64,000 nt of DNA, from NCBI GenBank assembly GCA_902590895.1, contig CACIYM010000001.1, positions 68,477 to 132,476 on the forward strand, in the 5' to 3' direction. Within the stretch, counting starts at the first letter, position 1. The number at the start of each line of letters is the position of its first letter. This document shows positions 46,461 through 64,000 of the stretch, in pieces. The notes under the pieces were generated by a model that was not told the origin of the DNA, made no database searches, and saw only the letters and a list, made by a program, of their open reading frames with translations. The position numbers and the translations under genes were made by a program. The stretch is from an uncultured Alphaproteobacteria bacterium. GTDB lineage: Bacteria; Pseudomonadota; Alphaproteobacteria; Methylaequorales; Methylaequoraceae.

Positions 46461-46757
46461 ATGAGCAATTTCAAAGAAGCAGCTAACAAAACACTTAACT
46501 TAATTTTTGATATGGTAGAAAAAAATTATGACTTCCTCGACGTTGATTATGAGGACGAAAATCTCAAAATTGAAAAAGAGGAAAAAGTATTTATTGTAAG
46601 TATTCACAACCCTACATCGCAAATTTGGCTGTCTTCTCCAATAAGTGGTGCGCATCATTTTGAGCTCATGCATAACACAAACAACTGGATTGGAACAAGA
46701 GATAAAAATTTAGATTTAATTAAAGTTCTCGAGAAGGAATTGGGTTCATTACGGTGA
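46461..46757 (+). CDS. cyaY: frataxin-like iron donor CyaY
   Basis: 98 aa. Acidic N-terminal helix and the QIWLSSPISGAHHF motif. Confidence 0.7.
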   Translation: MSNFKEAANKTLNLIFDMVEKNYDFLDVDYEDENLKIEKEEKVFIVSIHNPTSQIWLSSPISGAHHFELMHNTNNWIGTRDKNLDLIKVLEKELGSLR

Positions 46758-47059
46758 GTCAAAAACTGCTAAAGTTATTTAAAGTTGATAACTATTTTAG
46801 ATTATTAATTATTTTCACAGTTTTTGGTATCACTGGCTCGCTTTCAGTAGTTTTAGGAAAATATGTACTGATCAGTATTTTTTCTTCAAATATTCTAAAT
46901 AATGAGTTTTATTGGTTAATCAGAATATTATTAATTTTTCCCCTATATCAAATTTTATTAATTATTATAGGAACTTTATTCGGAGAGTTTAAATATTTTT
47001 GGGCTATTGAGAAAAAGATACTTGTAAGATTAAAAATTTTGAAATCACCTCCTAGTTAA
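46754..47059 (+). CDS. small integral membrane protein, unknown function
   Basis: 101 aa. GTG start in a GTGA overlap with the cyaY stop. 2-3 TM helices. Confidence 0.45.
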   Translation: MSQKLLKLFKVDNYFRLLIIFTVFGITGSLSVVLGKYVLISIFSSNILNNEFYWLIRILLIFPLYQILLIIIGTLFGEFKYFWAIEKKILVRLKILKSPPS

Positions 47060-48109
47060 CTTTATCTCTATTCTTCTATTTTTTTTGTATGCTTCTTCGT
47101 TTTCCTCACTTATTAATGGAGAGTGTTCCCCAAAGCCTGCAGCAACTAATCTGTTTGGTGAAATCCCATTTTCAATTAATAATTTTACAATATTTATTGC
47201 TCTTGAACTAGACAGATGCCAGTTAGAATTAAACTTTTCATTATATATAGGGATTTTATCAGTATGGCCGTCAATTCTAAGTACCCAATCAATTTTACTA
47301 GGAATTTTTTCAGATATTTCATTTAAACTTTTTGCTATATCAGATAGCTTCTTTATTCCTTGAGCTTGGATAACATCAGATCCAGATTCAAAAAAAATTT
47401 CAGATGGAAAAATAAACCTATCTCCTTCCACTTTTATATCTTTTCTATCACCCAGAGCTTCTTTGATTTTTTTAAAAAAGATTGACTGATATTCACTTAG
47501 TTCTTGTAACTTTCCTGCTAAAGCTTGATTTAATTTTTTTCCTAAATTTTCAATTTTTATCTTTTTCTCTCTATCCTCCTCTTCTGCAGATATCAACAAT
47601 TTTGATAATTCTTCTAACCTATTGTTTAGTTTTTCGACATTTCTATTAAGTTCAAAAATTTCTAGACTATTTTTTTCTTTTATTTCACTGAGATCTTTCA
47701 AATCTTCATTTTGTTTTTGAATTTTACCGAGTAAATTACTTCTTTCACTAATAACTTGATCTAATTCTTTTTCTTTGATCTTTATATTATATTGACTTTT
47801 AGACAGTTCCTCATCTAATTTATTTTTTTGTTTATTAAGATCTTTGTACTCGATTGTTAGTGTTGCGAAACTTTTATCAATTTTTTTTTTCTCAGTGTTT
47901 AAAAGGCTTAGTTGATTTGCGAGATTTGTGATTTGATTATCCAAACTAGAGATTTCACCACGTTTTATCTCTAATTGATCATTAAAATATATTTGGGTAA
48001 CGGTTGATATCAAAACTGTGAAGATTGTTACGATTAGTAAAGTTCCTAATACATCAACAAATCCTGGCCAAATGTTTACTTCATATAAATTTTTCCGAGA
48101 TGCTCTCAC
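47045..48109 (-). CDS. MotB/OmpA-like peptidoglycan-anchored protein with a long coiled-coil linker
   Basis: 354 aa. TM segment NIWPGFVDVLGTLLIVTIF with a conserved Asp. ~190 aa of heptad-like coil. C-terminal OmpA-like domain (RIDGHTD, SSSRAINIV, NRRIEIKL). Confidence 0.75.
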   Translation of the reverse strand: MRASRKNLYEVNIWPGFVDVLGTLLIVTIFTVLISTVTQIYFNDQLEIKRGEISSLDNQITNLANQLSLLNTEKKKIDKSFATLTIEYKDLNKQKNKLDEELSKSQYNIKIKEKELDQVISERSNLLGKIQKQNEDLKDLSEIKEKNSLEIFELNRNVEKLNNRLEELSKLLISAEEEDREKKIKIENLGKKLNQALAGKLQELSEYQSIFFKKIKEALGDRKDIKVEGDRFIFPSEIFFESGSDVIQAQGIKKLSDIAKSLNEISEKIPSKIDWVLRIDGHTDKIPIYNEKFNSNWHLSSSRAINIVKLLIENGISPNRLVAAGFGEHSPLISEENEEAYKKNRRIEIKLTRR

Positions 48110-49050
48110 TATTTTTTACTTATATTTGCAATTGTTTTAGATAACACTTTTATTTCGTCCTTGATTTCTTTATTGAGTGCAATGTTTTCAGATAAAAAAC
48201 TATTCACTTCATAAAGTGATTTCGAAATTGATTCTTGGTAATCATTTTGTTTATCAATGACTGATGTTGATTTCTTTAAATTTTCTGTTGTGACCTCAAT
48301 CAGAGATTCAATGTAAGCCGGCCCAAGGTTTTTTTTATCATTTTCATCCATATTCATAAGTGTAAACTTAGTATGTTGTGATAATTTTTCTTCAACCTCG
48401 TTGTAAAAGCGATTTTGTGCTTGACTAGATTGAAGATCCAAAAACCCAAGAATAAGTGATCCACCTAAACCGAATAAAGATGAACTGAATGCGGTACCCA
48501 TCCCACTTAAAGGTTCCTCAAGTCCTTGTTTGAGAACTTTGAATAACCTTTGGGTATCTTCAGAGAAGTTCAAACTACTTACAGTTATTCCAACAGAGTT
48601 TATTGTTTCAAGAAGTCCCCAAAATGTACCAAGTAGTCCTAAAAAAATCGTTAAGCCTATTAGATATCTCGAAATTTCTCTTGATTCGGTCAACCTTCCA
48701 TCTAAGCTTTCCATAATTGATTTCATAGCTGATTGTGAAAAGATAAACTTTCCTGAATGTTCCTTTAAAAATGTATCTAGATATTTTAGAAGGTTTGGTG
48801 ACTTTACACTTAGCTTCGAGGGCTGTTTGGAGCTAGTTGATTTTATAAGCCAATTATATTCATTTTTTAATAATAATATTTGTCTTAAAATATAAATAAT
48901 ACCAACGGTTATAATGAATATTATTATTGAATTAAGGGTTTGGTTTGTTAAGTAAAAATCTTTAAGCTTTTCTGCATACAAATATAACAATGAAGATATT
49001 AAAACTAAAAATAAAAGAATTCTTAGTATATATTTCCCAACAATTTTCAT
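48109..49050 (-). CDS. MotA/TolQ/ExbB-family ion-channel protein
   Basis: 313 aa. LGLLGTFWGLLETI and GMGTAFSSSLFGLGGSLILGFL TM motifs. ~100-aa helical tail. TAATG coupling on both sides. Confidence 0.75.
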   Translation of the reverse strand: MKIVGKYILRILLFLVLISSLLYLYAEKLKDFYLTNQTLNSIIIFIITVGIIYILRQILLLKNEYNWLIKSTSSKQPSKLSVKSPNLLKYLDTFLKEHSGKFIFSQSAMKSIMESLDGRLTESREISRYLIGLTIFLGLLGTFWGLLETINSVGITVSSLNFSEDTQRLFKVLKQGLEEPLSGMGTAFSSSLFGLGGSLILGFLDLQSSQAQNRFYNEVEEKLSQHTKFTLMNMDENDKKNLGPAYIESLIEVTTENLKKSTSVIDKQNDYQESISKSLYEVNSFLSENIALNKEIKDEIKVLSKTIANISKK

Positions 49051-51713
49051 TACAGCCCTATGAAATTTAACACTATCTCATTTTCCCACTTTTTAGAATC
49101 TTTTACTTTATTAAATTTAATTCCAATTCTGTTGTGAGAGATCCCTTGATTAATTAGAAAAGTTCTAATATACAATAACCTAGATTTTTGTTTTTTTTTA
49201 AAATCAGAATCTTTTAGATTATTTTTTGGGATTGAAGCAACAATCTCTATTCTTATTTGTTTGTCTATAATAGCTTTTACATATTCTTTAACATTTTTTT
49301 TATGTTTAAAACCTAGCTCAACTTCATTCTCATTAAATATAATTACTTCACTTGTTTTATTAACTTGTTTTTCTTTAATTTCAACAATTGAGGTAGGTGC
49401 ATTCAAAGCAGATAATAAATTAACATTTTTTGAATTTTGATCTCCATTGGTCTCATCGGAAGACGACTTTTTTTGTAACTTTTTTTTAAAATCTTCAGAT
49501 TTTTCAGATTCTGTTATTTGTTTCTTTTTCTGAAAAGATTGTTTAATCATATTTTCATCAAAAAACAGTTTAGTTTTATCTTCCTCTACTAAATTTTTTT
49601 TTTGATTTTCTTTGAAATAAGAGTATTTTCTTTTTTTAATCTCCTCTTCTCTTTGTCTCGCCAACTCATTTCGTATTAGTTTATCTTCAATATTTTGTTT
49701 AACCTTATTTACATCTTTTTTAATCTCAAGGATTTCGTTGGAATTAACTTTTTTTTCTTCAACATTAGACTTCAAGTTTGACTTATTAATAACTGTAACC
49801 TGAGTTAGTTTATTAATATTTTCACCAGATTGTTTCACTTTATCCTTTAGATCCTGTATGCTCGCTTTTATTTCATCTATTTGTTCTTTATTCTTGATTT
49901 GTTTTTGTAAAATAACTTCTTTTTTTTCCAAAATTTTTTGTTTTTCCTCAATTTCTTCAAGCAACTTAATTTTTTCTCTTTCTTTTTTTAAATTTTCTTC
50001 CTTTTGAGCAATTCTCATTAATTGCTTTTGTTTTTCAATTTCTTTTTGCTTCTTTTTTATTTCTTCTCGAAATCTTTTCTCATCAGCGATTCTTTGTTTT
50101 TCTTTGATTCTTCTTTCTTGTTCTTGTTTTTTTTCAAGAGCTTTTCTTTCTCTTCTTTCTCTTTTCATTCTTTCTTGATCAGCGATTTTTTGTAATTTAA
50201 TTTTTTTTTCAAGTTCTTTTTGTTTTCTTTTAAGCTCTTCTCTAATTTTTTTTTCTTCAGCTAACTTAAGTTTTTCATTTAACTTTTTCTGTTCTTGAGC
50301 TTTTTTTTCCAATAATTTTCTATCAGCTCTTTCTTTTTTAAGTTTTTCCTGCTCTGCTATTTTTTGTTTTCTTATTTCAATTTTCTTTTTTTCTTGCTCC
50401 TGCTTTCTTTTTATTTCATCAGCAAGTTTTTTCTTTTCCTCAAGTTTCTTTTTTTCTTCTTCTGTAAACTTTTTTATAGATTCCAATCTTTTTTCTTCCT
50501 CGAGAAGTTTTCTGGCTTGCTTTATCTCATTTCTCTGTCTTTCTTTTTCGGCTTTTCTCAGCTCTTTTAATTTCTTTTCTTCTTTTTGCTTAGCTAACTG
50601 TTTCTCTTTAAGTTTTTTTTGTTCTTCTTTTTTGGCTTTTTCAATTTCCTTTTTTAAACGTTTTTCTTCCTTTAGACGAGCAGCCTCTTGTTGCTTTAAT
50701 TTCTTTTCTTCATCCTTTTTGGCCTTTTCAAGCTCCTTTTTTAAACGTTTTTCTTCCTTTATACGAGCAGCCTCTTGTTGCTTTAATTTCTTTTCTTCAT
50801 CCTTTTTGGCCCTTTCAAGCTCCTTTTTTAAACGTTTTTCTTCCTTTAAACGAGCAGCCTCTTGTTGCTTTAATTTCTTTTCTTCATCCTTTTTGGCCTT
50901 TTCAAGTTCCTTTTTTAAACGTTTTTCTTCCTTTAAACGAGCAGCCTCTTTTTGTCTTTTTAATTCTTCAGCTTTTTTAATTGCTTCGAGTTCTTTTTGT
51001 TTTTTTAATTCCTCTGCCTTTTTAGCAGCTTCCAGTTCTTTTTGTTTTTTTAACTCCTCTGCCTTTTTAGCAGCTTCGAGTTCTTTTTGTTTTTTTAACT
51101 CCTCTGCTTTTTTAGCAGCTTCGAGGTCTTTTTGTTTTTTTAACTCCTCTGCCTTTTTTGCAGCTTCTAGCTCTTTTTGTTTTTTTAACTCCTCTGCCTT
51201 TTTTGCAGCTTCTAGCTCTTTTTGTTTTTTTAACTCCTCTGCCTTTTTTGCAGCTTCGAGTTCTTTTTGTTTTTTTAACTTCTCTGCCTTTTTTGCAGCT
51301 TCTAGCTCTTTTTGTTTTTTTAACTCCTCTGCTTTTCTAGCGGCTTCTAGCTCTTTTTCTCTTTTATCCTTAAGAGCTCTTCTCTTTTCTTCTTGGGCTT
51401 TTCTCGCAGCCTCTATCTCTTTATTTCTTTGTTTTTCTAAAGTTTTTCTCTTTTTTTCTTGGGCATCCCTAATGGCTTTTATCTCCTTGTCAAGATCCTC
51501 TTTTTCAGATTCTGATTTTATAACTGACTTGGGAGGTATAAGTTTAATTTTTTCATCTTTATTTTCAATTGATGGAATTAATAATCTTTTATTAGAATTT
51601 GGATCTATTATTATTTTCTTTATAACGTCTTTTTCTTGAGAAAATGATGTTTTTACCGAAAGTAAAAACAAAATTGGAATAATTAACAACGATGTTTTAA
51701 CAAAATAATTCAT
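49050..51713 (-). CDS. 887-aa secreted/anchored K/E-rich repeat protein with a possible degenerate OmpA-like C-terminal domain
   Basis: N-terminal hydrophobic signal (SLLIIPILFLLSVKTSFSQE). ~600 aa of charged helical repeats. The C-terminal ~110 aa carry a beta-alpha-beta pattern. Confidence 0.7.
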   Translation of the reverse strand: MNYFVKTSLLIIPILFLLSVKTSFSQEKDVIKKIIIDPNSNKRLLIPSIENKDEKIKLIPPKSVIKSESEKEDLDKEIKAIRDAQEKKRKTLEKQRNKEIEAARKAQEEKRRALKDKREKELEAARKAEELKKQKELEAAKKAEKLKKQKELEAAKKAEELKKQKELEAAKKAEELKKQKELEAAKKAEELKKQKDLEAAKKAEELKKQKELEAAKKAEELKKQKELEAAKKAEELKKQKELEAIKKAEELKRQKEAARLKEEKRLKKELEKAKKDEEKKLKQQEAARLKEEKRLKKELERAKKDEEKKLKQQEAARIKEEKRLKKELEKAKKDEEKKLKQQEAARLKEEKRLKKEIEKAKKEEQKKLKEKQLAKQKEEKKLKELRKAEKERQRNEIKQARKLLEEEKRLESIKKFTEEEKKKLEEKKKLADEIKRKQEQEKKKIEIRKQKIAEQEKLKKERADRKLLEKKAQEQKKLNEKLKLAEEKKIREELKRKQKELEKKIKLQKIADQERMKRERRERKALEKKQEQERRIKEKQRIADEKRFREEIKKKQKEIEKQKQLMRIAQKEENLKKEREKIKLLEEIEEKQKILEKKEVILQKQIKNKEQIDEIKASIQDLKDKVKQSGENINKLTQVTVINKSNLKSNVEEKKVNSNEILEIKKDVNKVKQNIEDKLIRNELARQREEEIKKRKYSYFKENQKKNLVEEDKTKLFFDENMIKQSFQKKKQITESEKSEDFKKKLQKKSSSDETNGDQNSKNVNLLSALNAPTSIVEIKEKQVNKTSEVIIFNENEVELGFKHKKNVKEYVKAIIDKQIRIEIVASIPKNNLKDSDFKKKQKSRLLYIRTFLINQGISHNRIGIKFNKVKDSKKWENEIVLNFIGL
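50642..50965 (-). repeat. in-frame 87-bp tandem repeat, ~3.7 units (29-aa unit KKELEKAKKDEEKKLKQQEAARLKEEKRL)
   Basis: Unit anchors at 50642, 50729, 50816 and 50903 (period exactly 87). Only a few substitutions between units. Confidence 0.9.
50948..51360 (-). repeat. in-frame 45-bp tandem repeat, ~9 units (15-aa unit KKQKELEAAKKAEEL)
   Basis: The anchor CTTTTTGT recurs at 50948, 50993, 51038, 51083, 51128, 51173, 51218, 51263, 51308 and (degenerate) 51353, with a period of exactly 45. Confidence 0.9.
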
Positions 51714-52478
51714 TTAATTTAAGCTTTTTTCTACCATTTCAGTTACTATCTTATCAACAAATTTGTTACCAGCTATAAATATTTTTGTATCTTTTAGCTC
51801 AATAGCTTTAAAATCACCACCAGTTGAGTTTATGATTAACCCAGCTTCAATAATAAGTTTTTTTGGTGGATTTATGATGACGCAACAATCAACTTTTCCA
51901 CATGAAAGATTACTTAGGTCAGAATAACATGAACCAGATTCAATTAATGAAAAATTATTTTCAGAAAATTTCTTTTTTATTATACCTTCATAAATCAGAC
52001 TTGAATCATCCTTATAATTAAAAATACTTATCAATGATTCTTCTTTTTTTTTCTTATTAGAGACTCTTATTCTTGTCTCATTTTTGAATGCACCAGTTAC
52101 TTTTTCATAATAAAAAACTTCGTCTTTTAATGGATTATAAAACAAATTAGTTATGATTAAATTTTTTTCAAACAGTGATATATTAATCCCAAAATTTTCG
52201 TTAGCTCTGGCAAAGTTAAGATTTGAGTCAATAATATTAATTAACCAAAAGTCTTGAATATCAATTTCTAAATCCTTGATTATTTTAAAATTTGGCTTAA
52301 TTTTTGTTAAAAAACTAATTACCTCTGCTTCAATTTTATTTTGAGACTTTTGTATAAAAATCTTTGAATCTTTCACTGAACTTTGAAGCTCTTCAATTTC
52401 ATTATAATCTCTTATAATATATTTTCTTAAATCTCTTAAATTTCTTTTTAGAACATTAGCCAATGGCGTGTAACTCAT
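51714..52478 (-). CDS. inositol-monophosphatase (SuhB)-fold protein with degenerate catalytic motifs
   Basis: 254 aa. Collinear with SuhB, but WVIDPLDGTTNF is replaced by WLINIIDSNLNF, ITEESG by IIKDLE, and WDFAAG by KKLIIEAG. Confidence 0.6.
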   Translation of the reverse strand: MSYTPLANVLKRNLRDLRKYIIRDYNEIEELQSSVKDSKIFIQKSQNKIEAEVISFLTKIKPNFKIIKDLEIDIQDFWLINIIDSNLNFARANENFGINISLFEKNLIITNLFYNPLKDEVFYYEKVTGAFKNETRIRVSNKKKKEESLISIFNYKDDSSLIYEGIIKKKFSENNFSLIESGSCYSDLSNLSCGKVDCCVIINPPKKLIIEAGLIINSTGGDFKAIELKDTKIFIAGNKFVDKIVTEMVEKSLN

Positions 52479-52479
52479 T

Positions 52480-53046
52480 TTAATCTCTCGATTTTTCTAA
52501 ATACTCTAGACTTTCAGTATTAATGATTATCTTATCACCTTCTTTGATATGTGCTGGGACTAAAATTTTGATATCTCTTGTAGTGGTTGCGTTTTTAAAG
52601 GATGAAGATGCTGTTTGTCCTTTTACAACCGCGTCAGCTTCTCGAACCTCTACTTTAATGATTTTGGGGAGTCTAATTCCAACAATCTCTTCAGCAATTA
52701 TGTCAAGAAAAAGCTGGACACCATCCTCTAAAAAACTTTTATTTCCATTTAGAAGTTCTTCGTTCAACGTAATTTGCTCATAATTTTCATTATTCATGAC
52801 TGTTATCATATTATTCTCCGAAAATAAAAAGGTGACACTCACTTCGTTAACATTAAGTTTTTCAACATTTTCAGATGTTCTTAATCTTTCATTTACCTTA
52901 GCCCCACTTTTTAGATCTCTCATCTCAAGTTGTATAAATGCTCCACCTTTACCAGGTTTGATTGTGTTTGTATTCATTACTTGTAACGTTTTATCTTTGT
53001 ATTTAATTACATTTCCAACTTTTATAAGATTAGCTATCATTTTCAT
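52480..53046 (-). CDS. efp: translation elongation factor P
   Basis: 188 aa with the KPGKGGAFIQLEMRDL loop motif. Confidence 0.9.
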   Translation of the reverse strand: MKMIANLIKVGNVIKYKDKTLQVMNTNTIKPGKGGAFIQLEMRDLKSGAKVNERLRTSENVEKLNVNEVSVTFLFSENNMITVMNNENYEQITLNEELLNGNKSFLEDGVQLFLDIIAEEIVGIRLPKIIKVEVREADAVVKGQTASSSFKNATTTRDIKILVPAHIKEGDKIIINTESLEYLEKSRD

Positions 53047-53676: not shown

Positions 53677-54057
53677 TTAAAAGTCTTGCATTAACTCACT
53701 AATAGTTTGAATTTTTTTAAATTTCTGTGTGGTAAGAATCTCTATCCCTTGCTTTCTAGCCAGTGATTCGATTTTTTCTCTCAAACTTTTATTTAAATTA
53801 GAACTTACCGATATTTTTTTGATTTCAAGCTCAATAAGTGTTAGCGCTAAACCAATATCCTCTCCAACCTCCGCAATAAAGTTTACTCTTTTATAATTTA
53901 GTAATAGATTGAACTGTTTCATCATGTGGGGGCCTTGCCACGATAAAGATTCAAAGGGCCAAATGATATTGACCTGTGAGTTATTAAATTTTTTTAAAAC
54001 TGTTTTGACTTCGTCTAAGTTAGAGAATTTGATTGTCAAATATTCATAAATCTTCAT
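53677..54057 (-). CDS. hypothetical protein
   Basis: 126-aa ORF tightly packed between gap and thiE (4-nt overlap, 2-nt gap). No motif recognised. Confidence 0.4.
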   Translation of the reverse strand: MKIYEYLTIKFSNLDEVKTVLKKFNNSQVNIIWPFESLSWQGPHMMKQFNLLLNYKRVNFIAEVGEDIGLALTLIELEIKKISVSSNLNKSLREKIESLARKQGIEILTTQKFKKIQTISELMQDF

Positions 54058-59782: not shown

Positions 59783-60196
59783 ATGAAAAAAATTCATTCA
59801 TCTTTAGTTTCTGTTTATTATGAAGATACTGATTTGACTGGATTTGTTTATCATACCAACTATCTGAAATATGCTGAGCGAGCGAGAAGTAATTTACTTA
59901 GAGAACATTTTCCTGAACTGCAGCAAATACTAAATTCCAACAAATTTTTTTTTGTAGTGAACCAATTAAATGTAAACTTTATAAAACCAGCATCTTTAAG
60001 TGATAATTTGACTGTTGAGACTTTTTTTTTGGAAAATTCTTTTTGTTCATTAAGTTTAAAACAAAAAATTTTTAAAAATAAAATATTACTTACTGAAATT
60101 AGTTTAAAACTTGTGTGGATAAATGGGTTGAACTCTAAACCTTCAAAAATTCCAGAAAATATAATTGCTAGATTTAATGCACTCGAAGTAGTATAA
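59783..60196 (+). CDS. ybgC: Tol-Pal-associated acyl-CoA thioesterase YbgC
   Basis: 137 aa. YYEDTDLTGFVYHTNYLKY (4HBT fold). Located upstream of tolQ. Confidence 0.8.
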   Translation: MKKIHSSLVSVYYEDTDLTGFVYHTNYLKYAERARSNLLREHFPELQQILNSNKFFFVVNQLNVNFIKPASLSDNLTVETFFLENSFCSLSLKQKIFKNKILLTEISLKLVWINGLNSKPSKIPENIIARFNALEVV

Positions 60197-60202
60197 AAAA
60201 TT

Positions 60203-60916
60203 ATGGATGAAACTATTGAAAAAAAAGTGATAGAGGAGGGAGCAGATTTTTCCATATTTTCGATGTTTCTTCAGGCCGATATTGTTGTAAAAATTGTTAT
60301 TATAATTCTAATTTTTTCTTCCGTATGGTCATGGGCAATAATATTCTCGAAGTATACCTCACTCAAAAATATCCTCATAGATTCAGAAGATTTTGAAGAA
60401 AATTTTTATTCTAGTGAAACCTTAAGTAAGTTATCAAAAAGACTTGGCTCTCAACCAACACATCCCATGGAATCAGTTTTTTTTTCAGCCATGGTTTATT
60501 TTGAAAAAGTAAAAACTGGTTTTTCAAATAAAAATAGCGAATTTAAACAGAAGTTTTGCGATAATGTAAAAAAAGAAATGGAAATTGTAATAAATAAGGA
60601 ACTTTCAACTTTGGAAAAGGGCCTAAATTTTCTTGCCTCTGTTGGTTCTACGGCCCCATTTATCGGACTTTTTGGAACGGTATGGGGAATTATGAATAGT
60701 TTTACGGCAATAGGTATATCTCAAAATACCAGTTTAGCTGTAGTTGCACCTGGAATAGCAGAAGCACTTTTTGCAACTGCTTTGGGTTTAGTTGCTGCAA
60801 TACCTTCGGTTTTATTTTTTAATAAATTTAACACTATGCTTGATGATATCTCGAATAAGTTAGATGTCTTTTCAGAAGAAATCATACTTATAATTTCAAA
60901 GGAAATATTTAGGTAA
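60203..60916 (+). CDS. tolQ: Tol-Pal system protein TolQ
   Basis: 237 aa. APFIGLFGTVWGIMNSF and APGIAEALFATALGLVAAIP motifs. Confidence 0.9.
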   Translation: MDETIEKKVIEEGADFSIFSMFLQADIVVKIVIIILIFSSVWSWAIIFSKYTSLKNILIDSEDFEENFYSSETLSKLSKRLGSQPTHPMESVFFSAMVYFEKVKTGFSNKNSEFKQKFCDNVKKEMEIVINKELSTLEKGLNFLASVGSTAPFIGLFGTVWGIMNSFTAIGISQNTSLAVVAPGIAEALFATALGLVAAIPSVLFFNKFNTMLDDISNKLDVFSEEIILIISKEIFR

Positions 60917-60921
60917 CAAAC

Positions 60922-61323
60922 TTGAAAAAAAATTACAAAAAAAGAAAATCAATTTCCGAAATAAACGTTACACCTTTTGTTGATGTAATGCTAGTTCTAT
61001 TAATAATCTTTATGGTTACAGCACCATTATTGACTGCCGGAATAAAAGTTAACCTTCCAGAAAGCACTTCTATCCTTAAAAATGAAAAAAATGATCCTGT
61101 AACCGTAACAATAAATTCAAAAGGTGAAATTTTTCTCCAAAAAAAAAAATTTTCAGCTAATGGTTTAATTAAAAAATTAAGGGCACTCAAATCACAAAAT
61201 AAAGATTTAAAGATATATATAAAAGGAGATAAAAAACTTAACTATGGTAAGGTTATGGATTTAATGAGTTTTATTAATAAATCTGGATTTAAAAAAGTTG
61301 CACTAGTTACTAAATTAAAATAA
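60922..61323 (+). CDS. tolR: Tol-Pal system protein TolR
   Basis: 133 aa. ISEINVTPFVDVMLVLLIIFMV with the conserved Asp. TTG start. Confidence 0.85.
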   Translation: MKKNYKKRKSISEINVTPFVDVMLVLLIIFMVTAPLLTAGIKVNLPESTSILKNEKNDPVTVTINSKGEIFLQKKKFSANGLIKKLRALKSQNKDLKIYIKGDKKLNYGKVMDLMSFINKSGFKKVALVTKLK

Positions 61324-61328
61324 TCAAA

Positions 61329-62105
61329 ATGACCAAAGGTCTTCTAAAATCAATGTTTCTTCATACAGGAATTTTAATGATGTTCATGTATGGTGCAGAA
61401 ATTTTTAAAAAAAATAAAAGATTTGAGATTTATGAAATACCACTTGATATCGTTGACATTTCAGAAAAAACTGTAAATAAAATTGAAAACAAAAAAAAAG
61501 CTTTTGAAAAAAAAAGCAAAAAGCAAAACGAGACTTATTCTCCTCCTTTACCAAAATCTAAACCAAAACCTCCAGAATTTGCTTTAAAAGACGAGAAAAA
61601 AAAGTCATCTGCTAAAAAAACAAAAAAAAAAGAAGAAACAAAAAAAAAGGAAGAAAAAAGATTAGATAGTATTTTAAAATCAATTGAAAAAATAAAATCA
61701 CAAAGAAAAGTAGAGATAGAAACAGAGGAGAAAGATGATGAGAAATTAGTTGATAAAAAAGAAGAAGATTTAAAAGAATTAAGTTTAGGAGATAAACTCT
61801 CTATATCTGAGAAAGATGCAATTCGAAGACAGTTTTATAGATGCTGGATTGTTCCGGCCGGAGCTAAAAATCTAAAAGATTTGTTCGTATCAATTAAAAT
61901 TAAGTTAGATAAAGAGGGAAACGTAATTTACTCAAAACTGATAAATGATAATAAATTAAACGAAAGTTTTTTTAGAGCAGCGGCTGAAAGTGCTCTAAGA
62001 GCGGTAAATCACCCAGAATGCAAAAAACTTAAAGTTCCTGAAAAAAAATACGCAACCTGGAAAGAAATAATTTTAGATTTTGATCCTTCACAAAGTATTA
62101 ATTAA
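61329..62105 (+). CDS. tolA: Tol-Pal system protein TolA
   Basis: 258 aa. N-terminal TM, K/E-rich helical domain and a TonB/TolA-like C-terminal domain. Synteny supports the call. Confidence 0.75.
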   Translation: MTKGLLKSMFLHTGILMMFMYGAEIFKKNKRFEIYEIPLDIVDISEKTVNKIENKKKAFEKKSKKQNETYSPPLPKSKPKPPEFALKDEKKKSSAKKTKKKEETKKKEEKRLDSILKSIEKIKSQRKVEIETEEKDDEKLVDKKEEDLKELSLGDKLSISEKDAIRRQFYRCWIVPAGAKNLKDLFVSIKIKLDKEGNVIYSKLINDNKLNESFFRAAAESALRAVNHPECKKLKVPEKKYATWKEIILDFDPSQSIN

Positions 62106-62156
62106 AAAAAGTAAATTTTGATTTTTTAATTCATAACTTTATAATGTTAAAATTAA

Positions 62157-63467
62157 ATGTTAAGACGCCTAGCCATATACTTTTTTTTCATATTATGTCC
62201 AGCGACAAGTTTTTCAGAACTTCGGATAGACATAACACGTGGTAATACAGAACCAATTCCAGTTGCGTTAGTACAATTAGAGACAAAAAATGATACTGAG
62301 GAAAAAATTTCATCTGATATTAGTAAAGTAATTACAAATAATCTTCAGAGATCTGGACTTTTTAAAATGCTACCGAGGAGAGTTTTTTTAACTGAAAAAT
62401 TAAACTTCGATTCAAAGCCTTCTTTCTCAGACTGGAAAATTACATCTGCGCAAGGTTTAATTCATGGAAATTTATCTGTTTCAGGTAAGAAATTAAATTT
62501 AAAATTTAGGCTCTGGGATGTTTTTTCAGAAAAACAAATGGTTGCACAACAACTAACAACTGAGACAAACAACTGGAGGAGAATTGCTCATGTAATCTCA
62601 GATATCATTTATAAAAGAATTACAGGTGAGTCAGGGTATTTTGACAGTCGTATAGTGTATATATCTGAGTCTGGACCTAAAAATAACAGAAAAAAAAGAT
62701 TAGCTATTGTTGATCAGGATGGAGAAAATCACAAATTTCTTACAGATGGTTCGTACCTTGCTTTAACACCAAGATTTTCCCCAGCTGCTCAAGAAGTTGC
62801 TTACTTGTCTTACAATAACACAATACCGAGAATTTTTTTACTTGATTTAAATACTGGTTTACAAAAAATACTCGGTGACTTTCCAGGCATGACTTTTAGC
62901 CCAAGGTATTCACCTGATGGAAAAAAATTAGTAATGAGCCTCGCAAGAAATGGTAACACAGACATTTATGAAATGAATCTTAAAACACAAAAGCTTGAAA
63001 GGCTAACGAAGTATCCAGGAATTGATACTGCTCCATCATATTCTCCAGACGGTGATTTTATAACTTTTGAGTCTGATAGAAGTGGAAGTCAGAAAATTTA
63101 CGTTATGAATTTGAAAACTAAAAAAATTAAGAGAATTAGTTTTGGAAAAGGAAAATACGCAACTCCCGTTTGGTCACCAAGAGGAGATCTTATTGCTTTT
63201 ACAAAGCTGTTGGGCGGTGAGTTTTACATTGGTGTTATGTACACTGATGGAAAGGGAGAGAGAGTAGTTTATAAATCTTATTTGGTTGAGGGTCCAACTT
63301 GGTCGCCTAACGGAAGAGTATTATCATTTTATAGTCAAACCAAGTTTTCTAAAGGGAAAATATCGTCTCCCAAAATAAAACTTGTTGATTTAACAGGAGT
63401 AAATCTTAGAGAACTAATTACCCCATCTGATGCATCTGATCCGTCTTGGTCTGGATTATTACCTTAA
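62157..63467 (+). CDS. tolB: Tol-Pal system beta-propeller protein TolB
   Basis: 436 aa with a signal peptide. Repeated P.(W/Y)SPDG propeller motifs. Confidence 0.9.
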   Translation: MLRRLAIYFFFILCPATSFSELRIDITRGNTEPIPVALVQLETKNDTEEKISSDISKVITNNLQRSGLFKMLPRRVFLTEKLNFDSKPSFSDWKITSAQGLIHGNLSVSGKKLNLKFRLWDVFSEKQMVAQQLTTETNNWRRIAHVISDIIYKRITGESGYFDSRIVYISESGPKNNRKKRLAIVDQDGENHKFLTDGSYLALTPRFSPAAQEVAYLSYNNTIPRIFLLDLNTGLQKILGDFPGMTFSPRYSPDGKKLVMSLARNGNTDIYEMNLKTQKLERLTKYPGIDTAPSYSPDGDFITFESDRSGSQKIYVMNLKTKKIKRISFGKGKYATPVWSPRGDLIAFTKLLGGEFYIGVMYTDGKGERVVYKSYLVEGPTWSPNGRVLSFYSQTKFSKGKISSPKIKLVDLTGVNLRELITPSDASDPSWSGLLP

Positions 63468-63579: not shown

Positions 63580-63759
63580 ATGAAATTAAAACTTTTAGCT
63601 TTATTATTTGCTGCGTTCATTGTTTCCGGATGTGGATTAACCGACAAAGTAGGTGGGGCCGACACTTTGTTAGTTGATGACTCTTTTAAAGAGATTCCAA
63701 CTCATGATAGCGTTGACTGTCGAGGTTCTTGTACTGTAAAGATTTACAACAGAAATTAA
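63580..63759 (+). CDS. 59-aa lipoprotein inserted between tolB and pal (not in ORF track)
   Basis: MKLKLLALLFAAFIVSGC lipobox, with SD AAGGGTGAG upstream. The mature 42 aa has two further Cys. Confidence 0.55.
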   Translation: MKLKLLALLFAAFIVSGCGLTDKVGGADTLLVDDSFKEIPTHDSVDCRGSCTVKIYNRN

Positions 63760-63879: not shown

Positions 63880-64000
63880 ATGAAAAATAAATATTTATCA
63901 CTATTATTTGCATCTTTTTTAGTTATTTCTGGTTGCGAAACAATAGGCGGCTCATCATCATCAGATTCTCCATCATATGAGTACGGGGACTCAAGACAAG
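63880..64000 (+). CDS. pal: peptidoglycan-associated lipoprotein Pal, 3'-truncated by window edge
   Basis: MKNKYLSLLFASFLVISGC lipobox followed by an S-rich linker. It sits after tolB. The OmpA domain lies beyond the window. Confidence 0.6.
   Translation, partial: MKNKYLSLLFASFLVISGCETIGGSSSSDSPSYEYGDSRQ

What the first reader, a model, noticed from the sequence alone, without database searches (positions are those of the whole stretch)
47045..51713. Orphan three-gene envelope module: ExbB/MotA-like channel, coiled-coil MotB/OmpA anchor and an 887-aa charged-helix repeat protein
Three minus-strand genes are translationally coupled by single-nucleotide TAATG overlaps at 49050 and 48109. (i) 48109-49050 (313 aa) has two N-terminal TM helices, then LGLLGTFWGLLETI and GMGTAFSSSLFGLGGSLILGFL, which is the TolQ/ExbB/MotA channel signature, plus a ~100-aa helical tail. 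(ii) 47045-48109 (354 aa) has one TM (NIWPGFVDVLGTLLIV) with an Asp where MotB/TolR/ExbD carry the protonatable Asp. It then has ~190 aa of heptad-like coiled coil and a clear OmpA/MotB peptidoglycan-binding domain (RIDGHTD..SSSRAINIV..NRRIEIKL). (iii) 49050-51713 (887 aa) has a signal or anchor helix and ~600 aa made almost entirely of K/E/A/Q/R/L. Its C-terminal ~110 aa (IIFNENEVEL..IRIEIVASIP..SRLLYIRTFLINQGISHNRIGIKF) look like a degenerate OmpA-like fold without the usual GHTD ligands. The window also holds a complete canonical ybgC-tolQRAB-pal cluster, so this is not Tol. No TonB/ExbD-like partner is present. No Zorya-type effector genes are adjacent. A ~190-aa coiled coil between the TM/plug and the PG domain is not a feature of canonical MotB/PomB. 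The architecture suggests a wall-tethered ion-driven 5:2-type motor paired with a very long helical envelope spacer. I know of no characterised system with this composition.
Basis: partly seen in the sequence, partly recalled or inferred. Interest (0 to 1): 0.8.

Follow-up and report, generated by a model that had tools for sequence, protein, structure and literature searches.

The report
Conserved non-flagellar ZorAB-like envelope motor module
An AT-rich marine alphaproteobacterium carries three adjacent genes for what looks like a wall-anchored, ion-driven membrane motor plus a secreted partner protein; the module is conserved across Alphaproteobacteria, is neither a flagellar, Tol/Ton nor phage-defence motor, and its job is still essentially unknown.

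Summary
The three minus-strand genes are real. I call them X (49050-51713, 887 aa), A (48109-49050, 313 aa) and B (47045-48109, 354 aa).

- **B** is a full-length member of NCBIfam PRK09039 "peptidoglycan-binding protein". It has one TM helix with an invariant Asp, a heptad coiled coil of about 150 aa, and a canonical OmpA/MotB domain.
- **A** is a 4-TM member of the MotA/ExbB/TolQ/ZorA superfamily with a cytoplasmic helical tail. Its only family-level sequence matches are weak ones to ZorA models. Its predicted fold matches ExbB, ZorA and TolQ, not MotA.
- **X** has a signal peptide, a short conserved N-terminal motif, a K/E-rich repeat spacer, and a diverged OmpA-like domain that lacks the ligand Asp.

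In 80 genomes, mostly alphaproteobacterial, B follows A in 72 of 77 loci and an X-family gene precedes A in 49 of 80. efp and an IMPase-family gene usually lie upstream. No Zorya effector genes are nearby.

Primer-encoded termini show that the "motA/motB" genes studied in non-flagellated Komagataeibacter hansenii belong to this family. There the proteins were polar, overexpression elongated cells, and disruption mutants were obtained.

Best reading: a housekeeping, peptidoglycan-anchored 5:2-type proton motor of a distinct, mechanistically uncharacterised family. Stoichiometry, ion flow and output are inferred, not shown.

The parts
49050..51713 (-). Gene X (887 aa): secreted periplasmic partner protein made of a signal peptide, a short N-terminal motif, a K/E-rich repeat spacer and a C-terminal OmpA-like domain
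   Evidence: ORF. Clusters with the gene immediately upstream of A in 49/80 related loci. No Pfam or PADLOC hit for the whole protein; the only NCBIfam match is a weak compositional one to tolA_full, 19.3 bits against a cut-off of 59.45.
51639..51713 (-). X residues 1-25: Sec-type signal peptide (MNYFVKTSLLIIPILFLLSVKTSFS|QEK)
   Evidence: Read directly from the sequence. Orthologues show classical AxA|Q-type signal peptides. No SignalP run, so the cleavage site is inferred.
51579..51626 (-). X residues 30-45 (VIKKIIIDPNSNKRLL): near-match to a conserved N-terminal motif, hydrophobic-x-hydrophobic-(D/N)-x-x-x-hydrophobic
   Evidence: The motif is found 5-24 residues after the signal-peptide core in 26/35 X proteins, against 0.34 expected in shuffles (the pattern was defined post hoc). 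It is conserved between the window and the relative L083, whose A protein is 86% identical to the window's. The window copy itself fails the strict pattern.
49614..51488 (-). X residues 76-700: K/E/A/L-rich helical spacer with 15-aa and 29-aa tandem repeats
   Evidence: No Pro and one Gly; hydrophobic periodicity is not heptad. DNA repeats of 45 nt x9.3 (50946-51365) and 87 nt x4 (50606-50959). Repeat copy number differs among close relatives, giving 858, 887 and 968 aa.
49053..49352 (-). X residues ~788-887: diverged OmpA-like domain lacking the GHTD Asp but keeping the conserved Arg
   Evidence: 33.9 bits, E=1.8e-12 against the X-family profile built without the window. 31/32 aligned domains, all but the window copy, hit Pfam OmpA. 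AF2 pLDDT 65, and the Foldseek top 50 are all OmpA-like peptidoglycan-binding domains. Arg91 of the alignment is 32/32; the GHTD position is A-Y-A-[G/S/A].
48109..49050 (-). Gene A (313 aa): channel/rotor-type subunit of the MotA/ExbB/TolQ/ZorA superfamily, in a distinct family
   Evidence: Pfam MotA_ExbB 20.7 bits, below the 22.9 cut-off. PADLOC ZorA1 E=1.1e-16. AF2 pLDDT 84. Foldseek matches ExbB, ZorA and TolQ. 2173 clusters at 50% identity.
48430..48669 (-). A residues 128-207: conserved TM hairpin (GLLGTFWGL ... GMGTAFSSSLFGL) that would line the ion path
   Evidence: G138, L139, G141, T142, F143, G145, L146, A187, F188, S191, G194 and L195 are invariant in 35 diverse members. This is the only segment alignable to the window's own TolQ.
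48112..48369 (-). A residues 228-313: cytoplasmic helical tail ending in a family-conserved motif (IKDEIKVLSKTIANI)
   Evidence: AF2 helix 243-312. Tail length varies (family 300-620 aa overall) and the conserved C-terminal motif is ELRxEIxLLxRTIA. Periodicity about 3.55.
47045..48109 (-). Gene B (354 aa): MotB/ZorB-like stator/anchor subunit, NCBIfam PRK09039 family
   Evidence: NF006543 340.7 bits against a cut-off of 305, covering residues 6-354. Follows A within about 0-50 nt in 72/77 loci.
48002..48073 (-). B residues 13-36: single TM helix with WPGFVD motif; Asp19 is the candidate proton-carrying residue
   Evidence: W14, V18 and D19 are 72/72 in the B alignment.
47525..47992 (-). B residues ~40-195: periplasmic heptad coiled-coil stalk
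   Evidence: A sharp peak at period 3.5 and no Pro in residues 37-200. SMC-like coiled-coil HMM hits. B length varies from 314 to 620 aa in the family.
47075..47395 (-). B residues 239-345: canonical OmpA/MotB peptidoglycan-binding domain
   Evidence: Pfam OmpA E=1.2e-16. PDB MotB and PomB matches. G281, D284, R303, R345 and R346 are 72/72.
51714..53046 (-). Conserved upstream neighbours: IMPase-family gene (51714-52478) and efp (52480-53046). This is context and probably not part of the machine.
   Evidence: Pfam and NCBIfam hits. Upstream of A in 46 and 44 of the 62 loci with at least 3 kb of flank. The IMPase stop abuts the X start (TAAATG).

Best explanation
X-A-B is a vertically inherited housekeeping module found mainly in Alphaproteobacteria. 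It encodes a peptidoglycan-anchored, ion-driven motor of the 5:2 class. Its closest sequence relatives are the ZorAB cores of Zorya, but it is a separate family.

**Proposed working (inferred by homology)**
- Five A subunits (4 TM, N- and C-termini in the cytoplasm) surround a dimer of B TM helices.
- Protonation and deprotonation of B Asp19 against the conserved Thr/Ser-rich A hairpin drives rotation of the A ring around B.
- B is held still because its dimeric coiled-coil stalk of about 150 residues (roughly 20 nm) ends in a canonical OmpA-type domain bound to peptidoglycan.
- The A C-terminal helices form a short cytoplasmic bundle. Its conserved tip would couple rotation to an unknown cytoplasmic or membrane partner.
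- X is exported to the periplasm. It is an accessory that joins the wall-proximal end of the machine through its Asp-less OmpA-like domain, by pairing with B's domain or by non-canonical wall binding, and/or through its short conserved N-terminal strand motif. Its spacer is free to vary in length.

**Proposed role**
- The cellular role is most likely in envelope organisation at poles or division sites, not motility or phage defence.

**Shown versus inferred**
- Shown: gene structure, domain identities, residue conservation, fold class, gene-order conservation.
- Inferred: 5:2 stoichiometry, ion flow, rotation, topology, the X-B contact, and the physiological role.
For: **B**
- Full-length PRK09039 equivalog match above cut-off.
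- Asp19 and the OmpA ligand residues are invariant in 72 sequences, and there is a strict heptad stalk.

**A**
- Pfam MotA_ExbB hits in 28/35 members.
- PADLOC ZorA1 and ZorA3 hits in 35/35 members.
- NCBIfam ZorA models hit 16-18 of 35 members, MotA 1 of 35, TolQ and ExbB none.
- AF2 model at pLDDT 84 with ExbB, ZorA and TolQ as best PDB folds, and no MotA or PomA in the top 50.
- Invariant GLLGTFWGL and AFSSSLFGL hairpin.

**Module conservation**
- A-B adjacency in 72/77 loci, X family directly upstream in 49/80, efp and IMPase upstream in 44-46 of 62.
- Neighbours are housekeeping or transporter genes, not nucleases or helicases.
- Base composition of the region matches its flanks.

**X**
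- Signal peptide, motif and OmpA-like domain.

**Experimental hint**
- Family members in non-flagellated K. hansenii are polar. Overexpression elongates cells, and disruption mutants were obtained and make denser cellulose (PMC6570709 and PMC7347698). Membership was shown from the primer-encoded termini MTRPTTY and ...EFRLTDR.
Against: - No multimer model or biochemical data, so stoichiometry, ion specificity and rotation are untested.
- A profile of the A TM core finds no significant match to any solved A-subunit sequence; the best is ExbB at E=0.22. The ZorA affinity therefore rests on one-directional HMM hits far below curated cut-offs (18.8 bits against 100).
- Foldseek E-values are modest (about 1e-3) and TM-scores are 0.3-0.6.
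- X is absent next to A-B in about 10 loci where the IMPase gene abuts A, so X is not obligatory or may be encoded elsewhere.
- The window copy of the X N-terminal motif fails the strict pattern.
- The Komagataeibacter phenotypes come from overexpression and were read by the authors as motility-related.
- The organism's lack of flagella is an inference, since it is only labelled "Alphaproteobacteria bacterium".
Confidence: 0.55

Rival explanations
1. Tol/Ton-like trans-envelope force transducer. The motor's work is delivered in the periplasm, with X as the load. The conserved N-terminal strand of X would be captured by the motor or by B, as the TonB box and the TolB N-terminus are captured in their systems. 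Pulling on X would then remodel or tether the wall and outer membrane at division sites. The cytoplasmic tail would be only structural or regulatory.
For: - X has a short conserved N-terminal strand-like motif followed by a length-variable linker and a wall-type domain.
- The linkers are Pro/Ala-rich or K/E-helical, like TonB and TolA domain II, with weak tolA_full compositional hits.
- X is tightly linked to A-B.
- B and mature X lengths correlate weakly (rho 0.36, p=0.04, not corrected for phylogeny).
Against: - X has a cleavable-looking signal peptide rather than a TolA/TonB-type membrane anchor, and no SHLS-like motif.
- X is missing beside A-B in some genomes.
- B already carries its own wall anchor, unlike TolR and ExbD.
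- The A tail tip is conserved, which suggests a cytoplasmic output.
Confidence: 0.2
2. A static envelope tether or spacer. B (coiled coil plus OmpA domain) and X simply link the inner membrane to the wall and set periplasmic geometry. The A/B channel would be vestigial, or act only as an ion-gated or mechanosensitive anchor without rotation.
For: - Long coiled-coil stalk and wall-binding domain in B, and a second OmpA-like protein with a length-polymorphic spacer.
- Disruption mutants were obtained in K. hansenii.
Against: The Asp in the B TM helix is invariant and the A hairpin is strictly conserved across very divergent genomes, including a highly streamlined one. That argues for a working ion pathway rather than a relic.
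Confidence: 0.1
3. An anti-phage Zorya-like sensor whose effector genes are unknown or encoded elsewhere.
For: The best family-level sequence hits of A are to ZorA models, B hits ZorB models, and A has a cytoplasmic helical tail as ZorA does.
Against: - Scores are far below ZorA cut-offs.
- The tail is 85 aa here, against several hundred residues in ZorA (PMC11946911).
- No zorC/D/E/F/G-like genes within 7 kb in 80 loci; neighbours are efp, IMPase, ABC and MFS transporter genes.
- The same chromosomal context recurs across alphaproteobacterial orders, which is the pattern of a core gene and not a defence island.
- B has a long coiled coil not described for ZorB.
Confidence: 0.07
4. A flagellar (or gliding) stator pair, or its relic, as many database names suggest ("flagellar motor protein MotA").
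For: - 4-TM topology, and a B subunit with a MotB-type OmpA domain; the best PDB sequence hits of B are MotB and PomB.
- Some sources name A "MotA".
- Polar localisation and altered colony spreading in K. hansenii.
Against: - Only 1 of 35 A members touches a MotA model, at E~0.006.
- No MotA or PomA structure is in the top 50 fold matches.
- The cytoplasmic loop is about 65 aa.
- The family is present in K. hansenii, which lacks flagella, and in a genome type with contigs of about 1.2 Mb and 29% GC that is probably SAR11-like.
- No flagellar genes lie near A-B in 80 loci.
Confidence: 0.03

Closest known systems
ZorAB core of Zorya anti-phage systems (ZorA5B2; PDB 8qyd, 8vvn)
   Same: - A is in the same superfamily and has a C-terminal cytoplasmic helical tail.
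- B has a TM Asp and a peptidoglycan-binding OmpA-type domain.
- ZorA and ZorB models are the best family-level hits.
- ZorA is among the best fold matches (TM-scores 0.44/0.58).
   Different: - Scores are far below ZorA cut-offs.
- A has 4 predicted TM helices, whereas ZorA has 3.
- The tail is 85 aa here and variable in the family, against several hundred residues in ZorA.
- B has a coiled-coil stalk of about 150 aa.
- There are no ZorC/D/E effectors.
- The housekeeping gene order is conserved, and there is a secreted OmpA-like partner X.
TolQR-TolA / ExbBD-TonB energisers
   Same: - Fold class of A: ExbB and TolQ are among the top structural matches.
- The GxxGT(V/F)WG hairpin motif is shared with the window's own TolQ.
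- There is a third component with a length-variable linker and a C-terminal domain.
   Different: - No TolQ or ExbB model hit.
- B carries an OmpA domain and a coiled coil instead of a TolR/ExbD fold.
- X is secreted rather than TM-anchored.
- A canonical ybgC-tolQ-tolR-tolB cluster exists separately at 59783-63467.
Flagellar stators MotAB/PomAB, with MotY as an OmpA-like periplasmic partner
   Same: - 4-TM A topology (hydropathy and AF2; TMHMM on the K. hansenii homologue).
- B has a TM Asp plus an OmpA domain.
- The X-family profile also matches the MotY OmpA-like domain.
   Different: - A does not match MotA or PomA models or folds.
- The cytoplasmic loop is short.
- B has a long coiled coil.
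- The family is present in non-flagellated bacteria, and no flagellar genes are nearby.
"MotA/MotB" of Komagataeibacter hansenii (Jacek et al. 2019, PMC6570709)
   Same: - Same family. The primer-encoded termini (M)TRPTTY, MARRSR and ...EFRLTDR* match Acetobacteraceae A/B loci.
- Same sizes and topology (348 aa with 4 TM; 321 aa with 1 TM plus OmpA) and the same adjacency.
   Different: - That work treated them as motility genes. It did not note the ZorA affinity, the B stalk, the partner X or the conserved synteny.
- It gave phenotypes (cell elongation on overexpression, polar foci, cellulose texture) but no mechanism.
NCBIfam PRK09039 "peptidoglycan-binding protein" (NF006542-NF006546)
   Same: B is a full-length member above the curated cut-off.
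   Different: The database family names only B, and only generically. I found no NCBIfam, Pfam or PADLOC model that names A or X as a family.

Membership tests
NCBIfam PRK09039.1-2 (NF006543) peptidoglycan-binding protein [B] | Full-length HMM score at or above the curated cut-off (305 bits) | tested here: met
   340.7 bits, residues 6-354 on model positions 9-350 of 350.
MotB/ZorB-type stator subunit [B] | Single N-terminal TM helix with a conserved Asp | tested here: met
   WPGFVD motif; D19 is 72/72 in the family alignment.
MotB/ZorB-type stator subunit [B] | C-terminal OmpA-like domain with peptidoglycan ligand residues (GHTD Asp, LSxxRA Arg, NRR) | tested here: met
   Pfam OmpA 61.2 bits against a cut-off of 27.2. 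D284, R303, R345 and R346 are 72/72. Actual peptidoglycan binding was not tested.
MotA/ExbB/TolQ/ZorA superfamily (Pfam PF01618) [A] | Pfam gathering score (22.9 bits) | tested here: inconclusive
   The window copy scores 20.7 bits, just below the cut-off. 28/35 family members match at E<=0.01, best 9.8e-7. The fold matches ExbB, ZorA and TolQ.
5:2 ion-driven rotary motors | A5B2 stoichiometry with the B Asp inside the A pentamer | not testable with these tools
   No multimer prediction is available. Inferred from homology only.
Zorya ZorA | ZorA model score at or above the curated cut-off (100 bits for NF033915) | tested here: not met
   18.8 bits. Family members reach at best E~1e-7 on NCBIfam ZorA models and 4e-17 on PADLOC ZorA1.
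Zorya system | Adjacent effector genes (zorC/zorD, zorE, or zorF/zorG) | tested here: not met
   The window neighbours are IMPase, efp, DUF6787 and frataxin genes. Across 80 loci the recurrent neighbours are efp, IMPase, ABC exporter and MFS genes.
Zorya ZorA | Very long cytoplasmic tail (hundreds of residues) | tested here: not met
   The tail is about 85 aa here. The family is 300-620 aa in total. The E. coli ZorA tail extends to residue 729 (PMC11946911).
Flagellar stator MotA/PomA | Match to MotA/PomA family models or fold | tested here: not met
   No MotA hit for the window protein, and 1/35 family members at E=0.0058. No MotA or PomA chain in the top 50 Foldseek matches.
Flagellar stator MotA/PomA | Co-occurrence with a flagellar rotor (FliG and others) in the genome | not testable with these tools
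   Only 64 kb is available. The K. hansenii homologues occur without flagella (PMC6570709).
TolQR / ExbBD | TolQ/ExbB and TolR/ExbD model matches | tested here: not met
   No TolQ or ExbB hit for A. B has an OmpA domain. Bona fide tolQ (252.5 bits against 221) and tolR (140 against 127.3) lie elsewhere in the window.
TolA/TonB-type transducer [X] | Uncleaved N-terminal TM anchor with an SHLS-type motif that docks on the motor | tested here: not met
   The X N-terminus looks like a cleavable signal peptide and has no His-containing motif. This is by inspection only.
OmpA-like domain (Pfam PF00691) [X C-terminus] | Pfam match, and the ligand Asp and Arg | tested here: inconclusive
   The window copy has no direct Pfam hit, but 31/32 aligned domains (all but the window copy) match. 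The window copy scores 33.9 bits on their profile and the fold matches OmpA-like domains. Arg is invariant. The GHTD Asp is replaced in the whole X family.

The most novel reading that the evidence does not exclude
This is a further housekeeping 5:2 motor system alongside Mot, Ton and Tol, ancestral to and near-universal in Alphaproteobacteria and retained even in extremely streamlined marine genomes. It would couple proton flow to a rotating cytoplasmic tail while being fixed to the wall by a long coiled-coil stalk and a secreted OmpA-like partner. It would act in pole or division-site envelope organisation. It would also represent the housekeeping stock from which the Zorya ZorAB sensor was recruited, or the reverse.
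Probability: 0.3. Interest if true: 0.85.

Novelty: new variant of a known kind. Interest (0 to 1): 0.68.

Why it matters
Known 5:2 motors power flagella, gliding, TonB-dependent uptake, Tol-Pal envelope constriction, a type I secretion adhesin system and Zorya phage defence (listed in PMC12204202).

This module would add a widely conserved, non-flagellar, non-defence member with an unusual layout: a ZorA-like tailed ring, a stator on a coiled-coil stalk of about 20 nm, and a secreted Asp-less OmpA-like partner.

It sits in at least 599 species-level genomes. It is also kept in a very small, AT-rich marine genome where little dispensable DNA survives, so its function is probably important. Working it out could show how Alphaproteobacteria organise their envelope at poles and division sites. 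It could also show where the Zorya sensor came from.

In practice, many database entries call A "flagellar motor protein MotA" or "hypothetical protein". Both labels are misleading.

Tried and rejected
1. **Rgs proteins.** I followed a recalled lead that these might be Rgs growth-pole proteins of Sinorhizobium. The paper contains no MotA, MotB, OmpA or ExbB terms, so I dropped it.
2. **Literature searches.** Searches for ZorAB-like or MotAB-like systems in Alphaproteobacteria, for PRK09039, and for new 5:2 motors found nothing relevant. The Zorya papers do not mention stand-alone ZorAB relatives. The MotAB evolution paper left ZorAB out of its trees.
3. **Full-length A profile against PDB.** It was swamped by coiled-coil matches to the tail. 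The TM-core profile found only non-significant ExbB hits. I therefore cannot rank ZorA, ExbB, TolQ and MotA from that direction.
4. **AF2 of the X domain with the broad alignment.** It was redone with a shallow alignment of close relatives, which gave moderate confidence.
5. **Promoter and terminator scan.** Promoter-like sites are at chance level (41 found, 37.4 expected). No minus-strand terminator-like site lies inside the gene run, so it says nothing firm about operon limits.
6. **Length correlations between A, B and X.** They are weak and not corrected for phylogeny.
7. **Organism name.** Attempts to name the organism gave only "Alphaproteobacteria bacterium". There is no rRNA in the window.
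8. **Upstream genes in loci without an X-family hit.** They are unrelated: integrase-like, phosphatase, GST and amidase genes.

Full report
**Observation**

The three minus-strand ORFs exist exactly as reported:
- X: 49050-51713, 887 aa
- A: 48109-49050, 313 aa
- B: 47045-48109, 354 aa

The X stop and A start overlap as TAATG. The upstream IMPase-family gene abuts X (TAAATG). efp, thiE, a 126-aa ORF and gap continue the same-strand run. GC content (27-30%) matches the flanks. Promoter-like sites are at chance level, and no minus-strand terminator-like site lies within the run.

**Protein B**

B matches NCBIfam NF006543 (PRK09039.1-2, "peptidoglycan-binding protein") over its whole length, above the curated cut-off (340.7 against 305 bits). 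It also matches Pfam OmpA. Its best solved relatives are the MotB and PomB periplasmic domains.

In an alignment of 72 orthologues:
- The TM motif WPGFVD is essentially invariant (W14, V18 and D19 are 72/72).
- The OmpA ligand positions are invariant (G281, D284, R303, R345, R346).
- Between the TM helix and the OmpA domain, residues 45-195 show a sharp 3.5-residue hydrophobic periodicity, and residues 37-200 have no proline. This is a canonical coiled coil of about 150 residues.
- Family length ranges from 314 to 620 aa, so the stalk length varies.

**Protein A**

*Sequence.* Pfam MotA_ExbB scores 20.7 bits, just below the gathering score. The only NCBIfam hit is a ZorA model at 18.8 bits against a cut-off of 100. 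PADLOC ZorA1 gives E=1.1e-16.

*Family size and shape.* An exhaustive HMMER search of 1.84 billion representative proteins finds 2173 clusters at E<=1e-3 and 398 at E<=1e-30. Members are 300-620 aa. An alignment of 35 diverse members (A1) shows:
- two N-terminal hydrophobic helices;
- a loop of about 65 residues;
- an invariant hairpin (GLLGTFWGL ... GMGTAFSSSLFGL);
- a helical tail of variable length ending in a conserved motif (ELRxEIxLLxRTIA; IKDEIKVLSKTIANI here).

*Family-level model hits.* All 35 members hit PADLOC ZorA1 and ZorA3 models. 16-18 hit NCBIfam ZorA models, one hits MotA and none hit TolQ or ExbB. 28 hit Pfam MotA_ExbB.

*Structure.* An AF2 model (pLDDT 84) is all-helical. 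Its best PDB matches are ExbB, ZorA (TM-scores 0.44/0.58) and TolQ, with no MotA or PomA chain in the top 50.

*Limits.* A profile of the TM core alone finds no significant match to any solved chain; the best is ExbB at E=0.22. The window's own TolQ aligns only over the hairpin.

A is therefore a separate family within the MotA/ExbB/TolQ/ZorA superfamily. It is nearest to ZorA by family models but is not a ZorA. Hydropathy, the positive-inside pattern and the model suggest 4 TM helices with both ends in the cytoplasm. This is inferred. TMHMM on the K. hansenii homologue gave the same topology.

**Protein X**

The window protein has four parts:
- **N-terminus.** It reads as a Sec signal peptide (...LLSVKTSFS|QEK).
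- **Spacer.** Residues 76-700 are K/E/A/L-rich, with no Pro and one Gly, and show no heptad periodicity.
- **Repeats.** The spacer contains nine 15-aa and four 29-aa repeats, encoded by 45-nt and 87-nt tandem DNA repeats of 92-94% identity.
- **C-terminal domain.** The last ~100 residues have no Pfam hit of their own.

In related genomes the gene directly upstream of A forms one homologous cluster that includes the window protein through this C-terminal domain. Evidence that the domain is OmpA-like:
- 31 of the 32 aligned domains, all but the window copy, hit Pfam OmpA.
- The family profile matches solved OmpA-like domains, including MotY.
- A profile built without the window copy scores it at 33.9 bits, E=1.8e-12.
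- An AF2 model from a shallow alignment (pLDDT 65; 70-85 in the core) gives only OmpA-like peptidoglycan-binding domains as its top 50 PDB matches.

In the whole X family the GHTD motif is replaced by A-Y-A-[G/S/A], while the Arg of LSxxRA is 32/32. From established knowledge of OmpA-like domains, where that Asp and Arg hold the diaminopimelate moiety, canonical wall binding by X is doubtful.

Orthologues are 141-578 aa and have classical AxA|Q signal peptides and Pro/Ala-rich linkers. A short motif, hydrophobic-x-hydrophobic-(D/N)-x-x-x-hydrophobic (for example VTVDLSVI), lies 5-24 residues after the signal-peptide core in 26/35, against 0.34 expected in shuffles. I defined the pattern after seeing the data, and the window copy (IIIDPNSN) is only a near match. 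No NCBIfam model names the X family.

**Conservation of the module**

The best 80 are mostly Alphaproteobacteria: Rhodospirillales, Azospirillum, Acetobacteraceae, Kiloniellales, Kordiimonas, Hyphomicrobiales and Maricaulales. A few are gamma-, beta- or deltaproteobacterial or other bins.

From my own ORF calls:
- B follows A on the same strand in 72 of the 77 loci with enough downstream sequence, mostly within 0-50 nt.
- An X-family gene lies immediately upstream of A in 47 loci by the automatic criterion, plus 2 where it overlaps the called start of A, making 49 of 80.
- Among the 62 loci with at least 3 kb upstream, an IMPase-family gene is present in 46 and efp in 44.
- In about 10 loci the IMPase gene abuts A with no X.

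Other recurrent neighbours are a convergent ABC exporter gene (28 loci) and an MFS transporter gene. No nuclease- or helicase-type Zorya effector gene appears. Close relatives of the window show the same order, gap-thiE-efp-IMPase-X-A-B-DUF6787-frataxin, with X of 858 and 968 aa. These differ from the window by whole repeat units.

**Prior work**

Reviews and surveys of 5:2 motors list Mot, Pom, Laf, Agl, Zor, Sii, Tol and Exb systems only (PMC12204202; PMC12505986).

One applied study examined "motA/motB" of the non-flagellated Komagataeibacter hansenii: 348 aa with 4 TM, and 321 aa with 1 TM plus OmpA, encoded by adjacent genes (PMC6570709). Its cloning primers encode (M)TRPTTY, MARRSR and ...EFRLTDR*. 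These match the A N-termini and B termini of Acetobacteraceae loci in my set (MTRPTIYLVRM...NRRIEFRLTDR). Those genes therefore belong to this family.

That work reported:
- elongated cells, more colony spreading and looser cellulose on overexpression;
- polar GFP foci, bipolar in long cells;
- disruption mutants, which were obtained and make denser cellulose (PMC7347698).

No mechanism, partner or relation to ZorAB was proposed.

**Interpretation**

The best-supported reading is a housekeeping, wall-anchored, ion-driven motor of the 5:2 class, from a distinct family nearest to ZorAB.

- Shown: domain identities, the invariant Asp and hairpin, the OmpA ligands in B, the fold class, and the conserved X-A-B order in a core-genome context.
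- Inferred: A5B2 stoichiometry, proton flow through Asp19, rotation of A around a B dimer fixed to the wall by a stalk of roughly 20 nm, a rotating cytoplasmic tail with a conserved docking tip, X joining the wall-proximal end, and a role at poles or division sites.

Rivals:
1. Periplasmic, Tol/Ton-like force delivery to X.
2. A static tether.
3. A Zorya-like defence sensor.
4. A flagellar stator or its relic.

The last two are disfavoured by failed membership tests and by gene context.

The organism is labelled only "Alphaproteobacteria bacterium". Its 29% GC, its marine metagenome sources, and contigs of about 1.2 Mb carrying close homologues suggest a SAR11-type genome. That is an inference, so I do not lean on its presumed lack of flagella.

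**Verdict**

Corrections are the second overlap sequence, the stalk length, the incompletely verifiable Tol-Pal claim, the lineage-specific nature of the long spacer, and the existence of limited prior work. I class it as a new variant of a known kind of machine, the 5:2 motors: widely conserved, poorly annotated and mechanistically uncharacterised.

Noticed in passing
window 50606-51365; L081 3425-6001; L083 3095-6001: Gene X is length-polymorphic among close relatives (858, 887 and 968 aa) by whole 15-aa and 29-aa repeat units. The non-repeat parts, including residues 400-700 and the N-terminal motif, stay well conserved. The spacer is 2-5 times longer than in other Alphaproteobacteria.
   Followed up: partly
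window 51714-53046 and loci L001-L080: The gene order efp, IMPase-family gene, (X), A, B is conserved across several alphaproteobacterial orders (44-46 of 62 loci). No functional link between EF-P or the IMPase and the module is evident.
   Followed up: partly
window 50632-51639 (+): A 335-aa antisense ORF rich in S/F/A/C lies opposite the X repeats. It is almost certainly an artefact of the purine-rich repeats, which also cause the extreme AT and GC skew in 50001-52000.
   Followed up: no
window 46754-47059 (+) and 47045-48109 (-): The DUF6787 gene and gene B converge and overlap by 15 nt at their 3' ends. The same arrangement is seen in the sister genome L081.
   Followed up: no
window 61329-62105 (+): The 258-aa ORF in the tolA position between tolR and tolB has no NCBIfam hit at E<=1e-5, so its identity as TolA rests on position only.
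   Followed up: no
window 63580-63759 and ~63883-64000 (+): After tolB there is a 59-aa ORF with a lipoprotein-type signal (LFAAFIVSGC). A second lipoprotein-type start (MKNKYLSLLFASFLVISGC...) follows and runs off the window end. It is presumably pal, but that cannot be confirmed here.
   Followed up: partly
window 53677-54057 (-): A 126-aa ORF between gap and thiE has no NCBIfam hit, and its counterpart in the sister genome L081 carries no precomputed Pfam family. It is conserved in position in that genome and in L083-L085.
   Followed up: no
loci L003, L005, L058, L070 and 24 others, downstream of B: A convergent fused ABC exporter gene (about 610 aa, ABC_membrane plus ABC_tran) follows B in 28 loci. 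An MFS transporter gene follows B in a Rhodospirillales subset. Neither is present in the window.
   Followed up: partly
public annotations of A homologues: The same family is variously named "flagellar motor protein MotA", "biopolymer transport protein ExbB/TolQ" or "hypothetical protein". None of these names fits the evidence.
   Followed up: partly
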